From an uncultured Pseudomonadota bacterium (GTDB taxonomy: Bacteria; Myxococcota_A; Polyangia; Fen-1088), in assembly GCA_963847705.1 (NCBI GenBank), contig CAWKBC010000027.1:96001-160000 (forward strand): DNA of 64,000 nucleotides, given 5' to 3'. Positions 9,182 to 15,828 of the stretch are shown here, one piece after another. The notes beneath the pieces were generated by a model. The model made no database searches and was not told the origin of the DNA. It worked only from the letters and a program-made list of their open reading frames with translations. A program made the position numbers and the translations under genes. Each line of letters opens with the position of its first letter. Position 1 is the first letter of the stretch.

Positions 9182-10027
9182 TCAGGACGCGCCTTGCATC
9201 CGACCCGTGATCACTTCGAGAACCTCGGCGGTGATCTCGTCCTGTCGCAGGACGTTCTCGCTGCGACGCAGGTCGACAAGCATGTCATCGAGGTGGGTGT
9301 GTGCAGCCTGCAGGACCTCCAGGCTCGCCGCGTTGGCCGCCGCGAAGCTCTCCGCGACGAACTCGAAGAGCCTGGCGTGAACGTACTCGCCGGCGATCTG
9401 CGCCATGAGAAGCGGGGCGGGCAGCATCGTGATGGGCGGAAGGGTGTCTGGTCGCCCGCTCCCCGGGAGGTCGAGGGGCAGCAACCTACGTCGCTCAATC
9501 ACGATGGTTCCCGTCGGCGTACGCCTGGGATGGACGATCTGGACCGAAAGACCATCGATGGATCCCGATCGCTCGAGGACCAGGGCACCGATCTGGTCGG
9601 CCGCGTCGCCGATGCCTCCGAGGTGGCTGGGCATGCTTCCGATGTACGTGGCGGTCAGCCCCTGCTCGCGTGCGAGCGCTTGGCCGCGCGCCCCGACGAT
9701 ACAGAGCTGGTAAGGCACAGGCGTTTCGGCGGCCGAGCGCAGCGTGCGCTCGTTGAGCGCTCCGACGAAGCCACGCTCGGTACAGAGGGCGACGACCAGG
9801 CTCTCCCGCTCCCGACCGGGCGGATCGAGGGGAAGGACGGACCTGGCCTCGCCGGTCAGGCTGGCGAAGGCGGCACCGATTCGGTCGGCGTACTCCCGAG
9901 CCGCTGCCTGAGCCCGCTCGCCCTGTTGGATGCGCGCGGCTGCCATTCCCCGCATCGCCCCCAGGACCTCTTCGAGCTCGTTCATGGTGGCGAGGCGGGC
10001 CCGCACCTCCGCGCCTCGCTCAGACAT
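9182..10027 (-). CDS. atpG: N-type ATPase gamma subunit
   Basis: AMRGMAAARI, ERGFVGALN, RQDEITAEVLEV; last gene of the operon. Confidence 0.9.
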   Translation of the reverse strand: MSERGAEVRARLATMNELEEVLGAMRGMAAARIQQGERAQAAAREYADRIGAAFASLTGEARSVLPLDPPGRERESLVVALCTERGFVGALNERTLRSAAETPVPYQLCIVGARGQALAREQGLTATYIGSMPSHLGGIGDAADQIGALVLERSGSIDGLSVQIVHPRRTPTGTIVIERRRLLPLDLPGSGRPDTLPPITMLPAPLLMAQIAGEYVHARLFEFVAESFAAANAASLEVLQAAHTHLDDMLVDLRRSENVLRQDEITAEVLEVITGRMQGAS

Positions 10028-11561
10028 GGGCTGCTTCGGCCTCTGGCGGCCTCGCCGGTCCCGCGGCGAGCTCGATGAGCTGCCGCAAGTCCGTTCGGCA
10101 GGTGTCATCGAGCTCACCGGTGTTTCCCAGGCGCGCGACGGCTCCCGGGCGATCCTCGAGTGCATCCGCAAGGGCGGCTCGGAAGCTGGTCATCCCTTCG
10201 GCAGGAAGCCGATCCAGCGTCCCGTCCGCCAGGGCGAGGAGCATCGCGACCTGAAGCGCGAAGGGTTGTGGCTGCATTTGCACCTGGGACAACAGGGCCC
10301 GAATGCGGCGGCCATGCTCGACGATTACCCGGGTGCGTTCGTCGGAGATACCACCGAAATGGGTGAACACCTCGAGCTCCAGAAACTGTGCGTAGGCAAG
10401 GCGCAACGGCTCGGCCAGCGTCCGCATCGCAGGCTTCTGAGTCTTGCCGCCGACCCGTGAGACGCTCAGCCCCACGTCGACCGCGGGCTTCTGACCGGCG
10501 TGGAACAGCTTGGCATCGAGGACGATTTGCCCGTCCGTGATGGAGATGAGATTGGTCGGAATGTAGGCGCTCAGGTTCCCCTCCTGAGTCTCCGCGATCG
10601 GCAGCGCGGTCACCGAGCCGCCGCCGCAGCGCTGGTGAAGCTTGGCCGCGCGTTCGAGCAGCCGCGCGTGCACGTAGAAGATGTCGCCGGGGAACGCCTC
10701 GCGCCCGGGCGGTTGCCGCAACAGCAGCGAGAGCTGGCGGTGGACGTCGGCATGCTTGGTGAGATCGTCGATGACGATGAGGACGTCGCGGCCACTGCGC
10801 GCGAAGTGCTCCGCCATGGTGAACCCGGCGTAGGGGGCCAGCCACTGAAGCCCAGGCGCCGCGTGCTCGGCGTCGGCGACGACGAACAGGCACCTCTGTG
10901 GGTTCCCGTGCTCCCGGACCTGTTCGATCACGCGCTTGACGGCCGAGGCCCGTTGTCCGATCGCCACGTAGACGCAGAGGACGTCGCTGTCGCGTTGGTT
11001 GATGATCGCGTCGACGGCCAGGGTGGTCTTGCCGGTCGATCGATCGCCGATGATCAGCTCCCGTTGCCCCCGACCGATGGCGAACATCGCGTCCACCACC
11101 GCGGTCCCCGTCTCCAGCGGCACAACGACGGGCGCGCGATCGATGATCGCCGGTGCCGGGCGGTCGGCGGGCTCGAAGTGGTCCACGGCAATGGGGCCGC
11201 CATCGTCGAGCGGGCGGCCCAGCGGATCGACGATGCGGCCGAGCAGGGCGTCGCCCACGGGGACTTCCACGACGCGGCCCGTGCCGCGCACGATCTGACC
11301 GGCAGCCGCCCGCGTCGTACTGTCGAGGAGAACGCAACCAATCTCGTCCTTGCCGAGCTCAACCGCTTGCCCCATCGTCCCGTCGGGAAGCTCGAGGAGC
11401 TCGTCGAGTGCGGCGTCCGGAAGGCCGACCACGCGAGCGACACCGTCGCCCACGTGAACGATGCGCCCGATGCGCTCCACGACCGGCGCCACCGCCAGAC
11501 GCCGGAGTCGCTCTGCTGCTCCCGTCGTCCAGAGGTCCAATCGCGTGGCGAGATCGTTCAT
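10020..11561 (-). CDS. atpA: N-type ATPase alpha subunit
   Basis: GRGQRELIIGDRSTGKT, PPGREAFPGDIFY, YIPTNLISITDGQI. Confidence 0.97.
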   Translation of the reverse strand: MNDLATRLDLWTTGAAERLRRLAVAPVVERIGRIVHVGDGVARVVGLPDAALDELLELPDGTMGQAVELGKDEIGCVLLDSTTRAAAGQIVRGTGRVVEVPVGDALLGRIVDPLGRPLDDGGPIAVDHFEPADRPAPAIIDRAPVVVPLETGTAVVDAMFAIGRGQRELIIGDRSTGKTTLAVDAIINQRDSDVLCVYVAIGQRASAVKRVIEQVREHGNPQRCLFVVADAEHAAPGLQWLAPYAGFTMAEHFARSGRDVLIVIDDLTKHADVHRQLSLLLRQPPGREAFPGDIFYVHARLLERAAKLHQRCGGGSVTALPIAETQEGNLSAYIPTNLISITDGQIVLDAKLFHAGQKPAVDVGLSVSRVGGKTQKPAMRTLAEPLRLAYAQFLELEVFTHFGGISDERTRVIVEHGRRIRALLSQVQMQPQPFALQVAMLLALADGTLDRLPAEGMTSFRAALADALEDRPGAVARLGNTGELDDTCRTDLRQLIELAAGPARPPEAEAAHV

Positions 11562-12304
11562 GGCTCTTTCAGCGCGCGCTGGACCTGAGCGACCTGCTCG
11601 CGCCAGCTGTGGCGTACGACGGCGGTGGGAAGGTGAATCTCGGCTCCGGCCAAGAGAGCGGAGTCCTCGGCGAACGCAATCGCCATGTGCTCGCCCAGCG
11701 CATGGTGCAACCGCGCTGAGACCGCATCCCGTTTCACGGTCTCCAGGGGCACCGCCGTCACAACCCGGATTTCGCCGGATCCGGATGCGACGTGAGCCGT
11801 CGCTTCCCGTCCGGTGTTGCCGTCCATCGACTCGATCGTTCGAAGGGCCTCGTCGAGCAGATGCGTCGAGGCGTCGTTCACCCCCGACATGGTGAGGAGA
11901 CGGCCGGCGATCCCAGCCGCCAGCTCCGCGGCCCGTGCTTGAAGCGTGGATTCGGCGGCTGTCCGTTCCCGAGCGAGCGCCGCTTCTCCTTCCTTGAGGA
12001 GGCTGTCGGCAGACCGCCGCGCCTCGGCCAAGAGCTGGTCGCGCCGGGACTCCGCGTCCCGGCCCGCCTCGAGCAGAAACCGATCACGTTCGCCCGCCGC
12101 TGCCCGATGCTGGCGCTCCGCCTCGGCGCACAGTTCCACTGCCTTGGTCCGCTCGGCGGCGGCCGCCGCCAGAGGCGCCTCCACCTCACGCTGTCGCCGG
12201 GCGATCATCGCCTGTACTGGCCGGTACAGCCAATACCGGAGCACCCCGGCAAGGACCAGGAAGTTCACGGTCTGGAAGGCGAAGGTGGCGAGGTGGGAGT
12301 GCAT
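11558..12304 (-). CDS. atpF: N-type ATPase b subunit with delta-like C-terminal extension
   Basis: FQTVNFLVL...LYRPV membrane anchor, coiled coil, C-terminal FAEDSALLAGAEI. Confidence 0.9.
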   Translation of the reverse strand: MHSHLATFAFQTVNFLVLAGVLRYWLYRPVQAMIARRQREVEAPLAAAAAERTKAVELCAEAERQHRAAAGERDRFLLEAGRDAESRRDQLLAEARRSADSLLKEGEAALARERTAAESTLQARAAELAAGIAGRLLTMSGVNDASTHLLDEALRTIESMDGNTGREATAHVASGSGEIRVVTAVPLETVKRDAVSARLHHALGEHMAIAFAEDSALLAGAEIHLPTAVVRHSWREQVAQVQRALKEP

Positions 12305-15656: not shown

Positions 15657-15668
15657 TCCTCACGTATT

Positions 15669-15828
15669 TGCAAGGTGGACGCCAGGTGACGCGGCCCGGG
15701 AATTGAGAGCGGGTACGGCCTTTGGCGCGCAGTTCTTTCGCTATGGCAACCGCCGCCGCAGAAAATGCGCGCTTCGGTATCGGGGAAGCCGGTATGACGA
15801 CACGTGGGGTTGCGGCTCGCCACTTGCA
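15669..15828. promoter_or_regulatory. Divergent sigma54 promoters (atp operon / acyl-CoA ligase-GNAT) around a tandem enhancer pair
   Basis: (-) TGGCGTCCACCTTGCA 15669-15684; sites CGCA-GTTCT-TTCG 15728-15740 and CGCA-GAAAA-TGCG 15757-15769; (+) CGGCTCGCCACTTGCA 15813-15828. Both promoters are 44 bp from the nearest site. Confidence 0.78.

What the first reader, a model, noticed from the sequence alone, without database searches (positions are those of the whole stretch)
9182..15769. Complete N-ATPase operon under the putative hypoxia activator
Seen: gene order atpDCQRBEFAG with no separate delta subunit, preceded by TGGCGTCCACCTTGCA and the tandem enhancer. Known: this order defines N-ATPases, accessory enzymes usually discussed for Na+ or acid stress, with poorly known regulation. 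Inference: here it may be induced at low O2 to hydrolyse ATP and maintain membrane potential when respiration fails.
Basis: partly seen in the sequence, partly recalled or inferred. Interest (0 to 1): 0.7.

Follow-up and report, generated by a model that had tools for sequence, protein, structure and literature searches.

The report
Low-oxygen switch on spare rotary ATPase
A likely myxobacterial genome carries an intact second rotary ATPase operon directly behind conserved DNA sites that match those of a known oxygen-sensing activator, so the enzyme is likely switched on at low oxygen and probably pumps protons with ATP; low-oxygen induction of such enzymes is already reported in other bacteria, but this wiring was not found in the papers searched.

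Summary
There is an intact nine-gene N-ATPase operon (atpDCQRBEFAG; AtpR, b-delta fusion) behind a sigma54 site at 15684-15669 and a pair of GCGCA-N5-TGCGC-type boxes 14 bp apart. That is the published NmpR site of Myxococcus xanthus, and the window encodes NmpR-, S-, T- and U-like proteins inside a low-oxygen island. The promoter, the boxes and a divergent acetate-CoA ligase gene are kept in two other species of the genus.

The c subunit is of the Burkholderia type (E-T-M-x-x-Y), so H+ is more likely than Na+. In proteobacteria the same subfamily often has an FNR box before atpD (19 of 72 loci with at most one mismatch; 3 of 376 at housekeeping loci). atpD starts 28 bases from the sigma54 site, as do 41 of 70 enhancer-linked promoters in the genus (28-29 bases), which predicts leaderless mRNAs.

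Hypoxic induction of N-ATPases is already in print (Burkholderia, Nitrospira marina). No expression data were found. Pumping versus low-gear ATP synthesis is unresolved. Verdict: a known enzyme with new wiring; interest 0.45.

The parts
14232..15656 (-). atpD, beta subunit; GTG start 28 bases from the first base of the sigma54 site, predicted leaderless
   Evidence: same offset in G021 and G023
13813..14235 (-). atpC, epsilon subunit
   Evidence: NF009981 and TIGR03166 at or over cut-off
13535..13816 (-). atpQ
   Evidence: PF09527
13263..13538 (-). atpR, hallmark of N-ATPases
   Evidence: PF12966, 39 bits against cut-off 26
12556..13266 (-). atpB, a subunit
   Evidence: NF009955 over cut-off
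12311..12559 (-). atpE, c subunit with E26 and E59-T60-M61-x-x-Y64 (Burkholderia type, likely H+)
11558..12304 (-). atpF, b subunit with delta-like C-terminal part
   Evidence: PF00430 plus weak PF00213
10020..11561 (-). atpA, alpha subunit
   Evidence: NF009884 over cut-off
9182..10027 (-). atpG, gamma subunit (the ORF finder extends it to 10171; ATG 10027 is the likely start)
   Evidence: PF00231
15669..15684 (-). sigma54 -24/-12 site of the operon
   Evidence: conserved in G021 and G023; rpoN present in the genome
15727..15741 (.). proximal NmpR-type box (one mismatch, in the core; the same mismatch is kept in three species)
15756..15770 (.). distal NmpR-type box (one mismatch, outer base)
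15813..15828 (+). divergent sigma54-like site, at the same distances (56 and 85) from the two boxes as the atpD site
15842..18629 (+). divergent acetate-CoA ligase (ADP-forming)-like/GNAT gene sharing the enhancer; frameshifted near 17740 in this assembly, one ORF in two relatives
26157..27776 (+). NmpR-like sigma54 activator (receiver, AAA+, HTH_8); true start uncertain, within this ORF
28208..29605 (-). NmpS-like hybrid kinase (receiver, PAS, HisKA, HATPase)
   Evidence: architecture as described in PMC11841059
29602..30783 (-). NmpU-like protoglobin histidine kinase
   Evidence: PDB 5OHE globin-coupled kinase, E 1e-44
39311..40480 (+). second protoglobin histidine kinase, 58% identical to the first
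18644..19390 (-). NmpT-like protein of two receiver domains

Best explanation
This intact N-ATPase is likely a proton-type rotary enzyme that the host's globin-kinase/NmpR-like system probably switches on through sigma54 at low oxygen, and it would then likely hydrolyse ATP to pump protons and hold the membrane potential. Shown here: the genes, the sigma54 site, the paired boxes, their conservation, the sensor genes and the island. Taken from M. xanthus (PMC11841059): without oxygen the globin kinase NmpU turns off, NmpS phosphorylates NmpR, and NmpR activates sigma54 promoters from paired boxes. Inferred: one enhancer drives both atp and the divergent acetate-CoA ligase gene; atpD is read from a leaderless mRNA and the downstream genes by translational coupling; ATP would come from substrate-level routes in the same island (glycogen phosphorylase, PPK2, possibly the ligase). 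My odds are about 0.8 for low-oxygen control and about 0.65 for pumping given that.
For: (1) Motif and 14-bp spacing equal the published NmpR site, whose bound promoters mostly had 14-15 bp.
(2) The motif is island-specific.
(3) Boxes and sigma54 site keep their distances (-55 to -57, -84 to -86, -28) in G000, G021 and G023 while the spacers diverge.
(4) The activator's C-terminal part lies within about 5 kb of a globin kinase in 64 of 101 other genomes that match it (counted by eye).
(5) The island holds cytochrome bd, USP, CBS, BON, hemerythrin, PPK2, glgP and ppsA.
(6) An FNR box lies before atpD in 9 of 72 related loci (perfect) and 19 of 72 (one mismatch allowed), against shuffle means of 0.05 and 1.3 and against 0 and 3 of 376 operon-leading ORFs at housekeeping F-ATPase loci.
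(7) ackA, pta or xfp lie within three genes in 6 of 26 randomly picked loci.
(8) The beta DELSEED loop has 3-4 acidic residues in 78 N-type copies and 4-5 in 38 housekeeping copies; the link to weaker epsilon inhibition is recalled.
(9) Low-oxygen induction is reported for the chromosome II cluster of Burkholderia (PMC4187911) and for N. marina (PMC8115632).
(10) dN/dS is 0.00-0.13 for D, C, Q, E, A, G and 0.38 for R against G021.
Against: No expression, TSS or activity data exist for this organism.
The proximal box breaks the GCA-N5-TGC core that all M. xanthus bound sites kept, and only 5 of 10 predicted promoters bound there. The distal box in G021 has a 6-base spacer.
M. xanthus NmpR itself was not compared. 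7 of 19 activators next to globin kinases were of another type.
Perfect FNR boxes before atpD are not significantly above other promoters of the same loci (9 of 72 against 29 of 408, p = 0.15), and 53 of 72 loci have no box.
A Roseiarcus-like subclade has neither a box before atpD nor low-oxygen neighbours.
B. thailandensis in stationary-phase anoxia raised the chromosome 1 operon, and the chromosome 2 operon was not among the anoxia-induced genes in the passages read (PMC3966863).
Cytochrome bd in the same island means respiration may continue. The ligase scores under the TIGR02717 cut-off (522 against 567) and may be an acetyltransferase.
Confidence: 0.52

Rival explanations
1. Same low-oxygen control, but the enzyme is a low-gear ATP synthase.
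For: The Burkholderia ring is c17, 5.7 H+/ATP (PMC5376962), which lowers the force needed for synthesis (inference). The window's c subunit is 88% identical to a B. multivorans N-type c. cydAB is in the island. In Burkholderia the chromosome I cluster was repressed while chromosome II was induced.
Against: In M. acetivorans the N-ATPase could not replace the main synthase (PMC2881411). Neighbours are recurrently fermentation enzymes. The DELSEED loop is less acidic. Ring size was not determined here.
Confidence: 0.25
2. The enhancer serves the divergent ligase gene, or the activator answers another signal, and the ATPase is an acid- or salt-stress pump that merely landed in the island.
For: The core mismatch in the proximal box. 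N-ATPases are described as Na+ or acid pumps and move laterally. Only 5 of 26 genomes of the genus have the operon while 16 have the activator. 53 of 72 related loci lack an FNR box.
Against: atpD has its own top-scoring sigma54 site at a fixed offset in three species. No sigma70-type promoter was found in 8600-16200. In G006 and G012 the operon follows other island genes (ppsA, hemerythrin-YceI) on the same strand.
Confidence: 0.15
3. The enzyme translocates Na+ rather than H+.
For: A glutamate lies in the first helix, which Dibrova et al. argued could complete a Na+ site.
Against: The ESTxxY motif is absent (ETMAIY). The Burkholderia ring with Glu-Thr-Met-x-x-Tyr measured as mainly H+-selective.
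Confidence: 0.08

Closest known systems
N-ATPase family (Dibrova, Galperin, Mulkidjanian 2010, PMC2881411; abstract to discussion read)
   Same: Gene order atpDCQRBEFAG, AtpR, AtpQ, long AtpF without a separate delta, two glutamates in c, patchy distribution.
   Different: No ESTxxY sodium motif. It sits in a low-oxygen island under sigma54; the text read offers salt or acid roles and no regulator.
Burkholderia chromosome II N-type ATPase (PMC5376962, passages; PMC4187911, passages)
   Same: Same c-subunit ion site (E-T-M-x-x-Y) and the same AtpD clade as Burkholderia loci. Induced under hypoxia and in persisters.
   Different: The Burkholderia loci fetched have FNR-type boxes or none; here the control is sigma54 plus NmpR-type boxes. 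Ring size and ion were not measured here.
NmpRSTU regulon of Myxococcus xanthus (PMC11841059, passages and sections 16 and 22; PMC6211767, passages)
   Same: Globin kinase, hybrid kinase, two-receiver protein and NtrC-like activator; box consensus and spacing; CBS, USP, hemerythrin and a high-affinity oxidase among the targets.
   Different: The paper's main text never mentions an ATP synthase (0 occurrences). Here there are two globin kinases, cytochrome bd instead of cbb3, a detached nmpT-like gene and a much larger clustered island.
Nitrospira marina N-type ATPase (PMC8115632, passages)
   Same: Subunits were more abundant at low oxygen; USPs rose in the same experiment.
   Different: Described as Na+-type; no regulator is named in the passages read.

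Membership tests
N-ATPase | Operon order atpDCQRBEFAG | tested here: met
N-ATPase | atpR and atpQ present | tested here: met
   PF12966 and PF09527 over cut-off
N-ATPase | No atpH; long atpF with a delta-like tail | tested here: met
   248 aa, weak PF00213 hit at 173-245
N-ATPase | Subunits cluster apart from typical F-ATPases | tested here: met
   AtpD trees; housekeeping copies separate at SH 100
N-ATPase | Second copy beside a typical F-ATPase | tested here: inconclusive
   G000 has b', b, delta, alpha, gamma and beta genes on C8, the last three frameshifted, and no housekeeping a or c in an 85% complete assembly. G023 has an intact housekeeping atpD.
Na+-translocating N-ATPase | Full Na+ ligand set (ESTxxY) | tested here: not met
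   ETMAIY; matches the H+-selective Burkholderia site
N-ATPase | Works as an ATP-driven pump, not a synthase | not testable with these tools
   needs biochemistry
NmpR regulon | Paired GCGCA-N5-TGCGC boxes, at most 2 mismatches each, 14-15 bp apart, intergenic | tested here: met
   one mismatch each, 14 bp apart
NmpR regulon | Perfect GCA-N5-TGC core in both boxes (seen in all bound M. xanthus sites) | tested here: not met
   the proximal box differs at one core base in all three species
NmpR regulon | sigma54 site between boxes and gene; rpoN present | tested here: met
NmpR regulon | Host encodes NmpU, NmpS, NmpT and NmpR architectures | tested here: met
NmpR regulon | The activator is the ortholog of M. 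xanthus NmpR | tested here: inconclusive
   No named NmpR sequence was in hand. Support is indirect: linkage to globin kinases and best hits back to the window.
NmpR regulon | Binding in vitro and activator-dependent induction | not testable with these tools
   needs EMSA and reporter assays
Leaderless mRNA | Transcription start at or within a few bases of the start codon | tested here: inconclusive
   The geometry fits; no 5' ends were available.

The most novel reading that the evidence does not exclude
The Burkholderia-type (ETMAIY) N-ATPases are a mobile low-oxygen module that each new host rewires to its own oxygen sensor: FNR/FixK in proteobacteria, and here a globin-kinase/sigma54 enhancer with a leaderless transcript. 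They serve as a swap-in large-ring enzyme that replaces the housekeeping synthase during hypoxia, possibly making ATP at low proton-motive force rather than only pumping.
Probability: 0.3. Interest if true: 0.75.

Novelty: new variant of a known kind. Interest (0 to 1): 0.45.

Why it matters
What N-ATPases are for, and when they are made, is an open question; the usual answers are salt or acid stress. This locus ties one to a defined oxygen-sensing pathway with a known binding site, and the sister operons carry a different oxygen regulator's box. Two unrelated control systems thus point to low oxygen, and a promoter-level test becomes simple. It also extends the NmpR regulon to a rotary ATPase and predicts a class of leaderless sigma54 transcripts in this lineage. 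The gain is moderate, because low-oxygen induction of N-ATPases is already reported and the direction of the enzyme remains untested.

Tried and rejected
Sequencing runs: no RNA holder was listed for window 9200-18600. This is no evidence either way.

NmpR boxes as a general feature of N-ATPase promoters: rejected. I fetched 20 of the 24 other Myxococcota loci; 18 had DNA upstream of atpD and 0 of 18 had a perfect box within 400 bases. L035 and L039 have Nmp-like genes 4-8 kb away but no perfect motif in the fetched stretch. No sigma54 top-score site lay before atpD in the 72 named loci.

Perfect FNR boxes against neighbouring promoters: not significant.

Leaderless starts as special to this island: rejected. 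The same offset appears at 7 of the genome's 26 best sigma54 motifs (28-29; 10 at 28-30), and -10 boxes pile up 12-15 bases before ATG among 941 long ORFs.

The N-ATPase as the only intact synthase of the cell: considered because the C8 copy is frameshifted; not accepted. The breaks crowd toward the contig end, G021's copy is broken too and G023's is intact. Assembly error is likely but was not tested.

A locus with the M. xanthus gene layout: sought in a 400-genome draw and not recognised.

Hamad et al. 2011 was not held, so the B. pseudomallei result is second-hand.

The first tree run timed out and was repeated. The atpF dN/dS value is probably out of register and was not used. The first DELSEED count missed most loci and was replaced.
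Full report
OBSERVATION. The nine genes are present, intact and in the order atpD-C-Q-R-B-E-F-A-G on the minus strand between 15656 and 9182. AtpR scores over the Pfam cut-off, AtpF carries a delta-like tail, and seven of eight junctions overlap. Against relative G021, dN/dS is 0.00-0.13 for six genes and 0.38 for atpR (the atpF value was discarded as probably out of register). The sigma54 site is at 15684-15669, and two boxes, each one mismatch from GCGCA-N5-TGCGC, lie at 15727-15741 and 15756-15770. CGCA-N5-TGCG occurs 16 times in the window against 3.27 in shuffles. The window is the densest of 143 genome bins, other spacer lengths are flat, and it holds 8 of the genome's 10 tandem pairs at 29-31 bp. 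rpoN is present.

HOST AND ISLAND. The closest named c subunits are from an uncultured Myxococcales MAG (L050, 95%) and a Polyangia MAG (L051, 80%), so the host is likely a myxobacterium. The window holds two protoglobin kinases (closest solved relative: the globin-coupled kinase 5OHE), a receiver-PAS-kinase hybrid, a two-receiver protein and an NtrC-like activator. It also holds cytochrome bd, several USP and CBS proteins, BON, hemerythrin-YceI, PPK2, glycogen phosphorylase and PEP synthase. This is the architecture of NmpRSTU in M. xanthus, whose activator binds paired GCGCA-N5-TGCGC boxes mostly 14-15 bp apart and induces a target under hypoxia (PMC11841059; passages and sections 16 and 22 read; supplements not read). 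That paper's main text does not mention an ATP synthase.

IS THE ACTIVATOR NmpR? I had no named NmpR sequence. The indirect support is this. Of 19 full-length activators in 22 globin-kinase loci, 12 share the window's helix-turn-helix type and hit it best in G000; 7 are of another type. In a 400-genome draw the C-terminal part matches 101 other genomes and lies within about 5 kb of a globin kinase in 64 of them (counted by eye). Against a simple transfer of the M. xanthus rule, the proximal box breaks the core that all bound sites kept, and half of that paper's predicted promoters did not bind.

CONSERVATION. The operon is in 5 of 26 genomes of the genus and the activator in 16 of 26, in assemblies 68-95% complete. 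In G021 and G023 the divergent ligase gene, the sigma54 site (-28 from the GTG) and the boxes (about -56 and -85 from the site) are kept while the spacers differ; G021's distal box has a 6-base spacer. In G006 and G012 the orthologous operon follows ppsA or ppsA plus hemerythrin-YceI, and the contigs begin before any promoter is reached. Elsewhere in the phylum 24 of 400 genomes have an N-type c. Of 20 fetched, 18 had upstream DNA and none had a perfect box within 400 bases of atpD; most of their c subunits read ESTAI. 13 of those 24 genomes have a globin kinase, against 104 of the other 376 (by eye; kin are not independent).

ORIGIN. AtpD of the window falls in a mainly proteobacterial clade, apart from the other Myxococcota N-ATPases (SH 99 in both trees). 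Forcing the genus's four rows and twelve other Myxococcota N-type rows into one clade is rejected at p-AU 0.018 (the group was named after the first tree was seen). The 98-row tree left out 16 loci with short or broken atpD and L050 as a duplicate; the second used 37 rows that I chose. This fits lateral gain; the donor and direction are not shown.

SISTER OPERONS. 76 read ETMAI, 3 ETTAI, and 1 was not read. In the 72 loci with 300 bases upstream of atpD, an FNR/FixK-type box (consensus recalled) is perfect in 9 and within one mismatch in 19; shuffle means are 0.05 and 1.3, and other spacer lengths give 0 and 0-4. Other operon-leading ORFs of the same loci have 29 and 42 of 408 (p = 0.15 and 0.0008). 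ORFs around housekeeping F-ATPase genes have 0 and 3 of 376. That control used 40 genomes from 46 that I picked, which included 17 of the 19 box-positive loci, so the paired figures (46 boxes against 2) are inflated. Over all 80 loci there are 61 perfect boxes in 1.36 Mb against 2 in 0.77 Mb of control. In 26 loci drawn at random from 52, 12 have ackA, pta, xfp, phaC, USP, CBS, Hsp20 or a Crp/Fnr gene within three genes, with no control for that count. A Roseiarcus-like subclade has none of these and no box before atpD. Low-oxygen wiring is therefore common in the subfamily but not universal.

LEADERLESS START. The atpD GTG lies 28 bases from the first base of the sigma54 site, leaving 0-2 bases of leader by the recalled -24/-12 geometry. 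9 of 14 enhancer-linked sigma54 sites in the window, and 41 of 70 across 19 loci of the genus, have ATG or GTG at offset 28 or 29; other offset pairs average 3.6 (maximum 10). Only 6 of the 41 have an SD-like word before the codon, against 20 of the other 29 in a longer stretch, and 38 of 41 have a pyrimidine just before it. Orthologous promoters are counted more than once. The trait is genome-wide, not special to the island, and 3 of 10 such promoters in other Myxococcota show it. A sigmaA leaderless pexR is suggested for myxobacteria (PMC12754779, passages). Three searches showed no paper on leaderless sigma54 regulons; I saw listings, plus passages of PMC3616915.

MECHANISM. The ion site E59-T60-M61-x-x-Y64 matches the Burkholderia ring that measured as mainly H+-selective, c17 (PMC5376962, passages). 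For pumping: the family argument of PMC2881411 (abstract to discussion read), ATP-yielding enzymes in the island and beside sister operons, and a less acidic DELSEED loop (the link to epsilon inhibition is recalled). For synthesis: a large ring lowers the force needed, cytochrome bd is in the island, and Burkholderia turns its main operon down while this one rises. I put low-oxygen control at about 0.8 and pumping at about 0.65 given that.

WHAT IS KNOWN. The chromosome II ATP synthase cluster was induced in hypoxic B. pseudomallei and in B. thailandensis persisters (PMC4187911, passages; the primary paper was not held). In stationary-phase anoxia B. thailandensis raised the chromosome 1 operon instead (PMC3966863, passages). 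N. marina raised N-ATPase subunits at low oxygen (PMC8115632, passages). Searches showed no report of NmpR or FNR control of an N-ATPase; most subscription papers are outside the library, and supplements that I did not read may list such genes. Earlier notes of this scan, read only after my own tests, already record FNR boxes and ackA/xfp links at N-ATPase operons.

VERDICT. A real, intact, known enzyme with a well-supported but untested link to a known oxygen-sensing pathway. The new parts are the NmpR-type sigma54 wiring and the predicted leaderless start. New variant of a known kind; interest 0.45.

Noticed in passing
window-wide sigma54 sites (8186, 15813, 19516, 22819, 22929, 25840, 33273, 39182, 43413, 49651, 49794, 52973, 57146) and loci L130-L145: Two sharp promoter classes: start codon at offset 28-29 without an SD, or at 33-51 with an SD. 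Distances from box to sigma54 site cluster near 45, 55, 76, 85, 96 and 106, suggesting helical phasing. -10 boxes 12-15 bases before ATG point to many leaderless sigma70 genes in this lineage.
   Followed up: partly
G000:C8:1-5800: The housekeeping F-ATPase operon has frameshifts in alpha, gamma and beta toward the contig end, and housekeeping a and c are not in the assembly. Probably assembly errors.
   Followed up: partly
window 15842-18629: The acetate-CoA ligase/GNAT fusion is frameshifted near 17740 and is one ORF in G021 and G023. It keeps an SHTGA motif; whether it is a ligase or a Pat-type acetyltransferase is open.
   Followed up: partly
window 29602-30783 and 39311-40480: Two protoglobin kinases, 58% identical. 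The other globin-kinase-bearing genomes in the phylum draw had one match each.
   Followed up: no
window 23355-24113: An RpoH/RpoS-like sigma factor in the island with region 2 but no region 4 hit, behind an enhancer-linked sigma54-like site at 22929.
   Followed up: no
window 21283-22287, 38513-39454, 42714-43385, 57145-57831: Four YceI-domain genes, one fused to hemerythrin; the other three sit directly behind enhancer-linked sigma54 sites.
   Followed up: no
L025-L028, L034, L097: G006, G012 and G021 carry further N-ATPase operons, some beside glycogen phosphorylase or PPK2; L097 has two divergent N-ATPase operons.
   Followed up: no
L043, L044, L048, L049: N-like c subunits in rearranged or interrupted operons (atpD after atpA in three of them), forming a separate deep AtpD branch.
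   Followed up: no
L104:5944-6303: A zeta-subunit (ATPase inhibitor) gene two genes upstream of an N-ATPase operon.
   Followed up: no
L193, L194, L198-L202: Globin kinases paired with a different activator helix-turn-helix and no core motif pairs: possibly a second oxygen regulon with another binding site.
   Followed up: no
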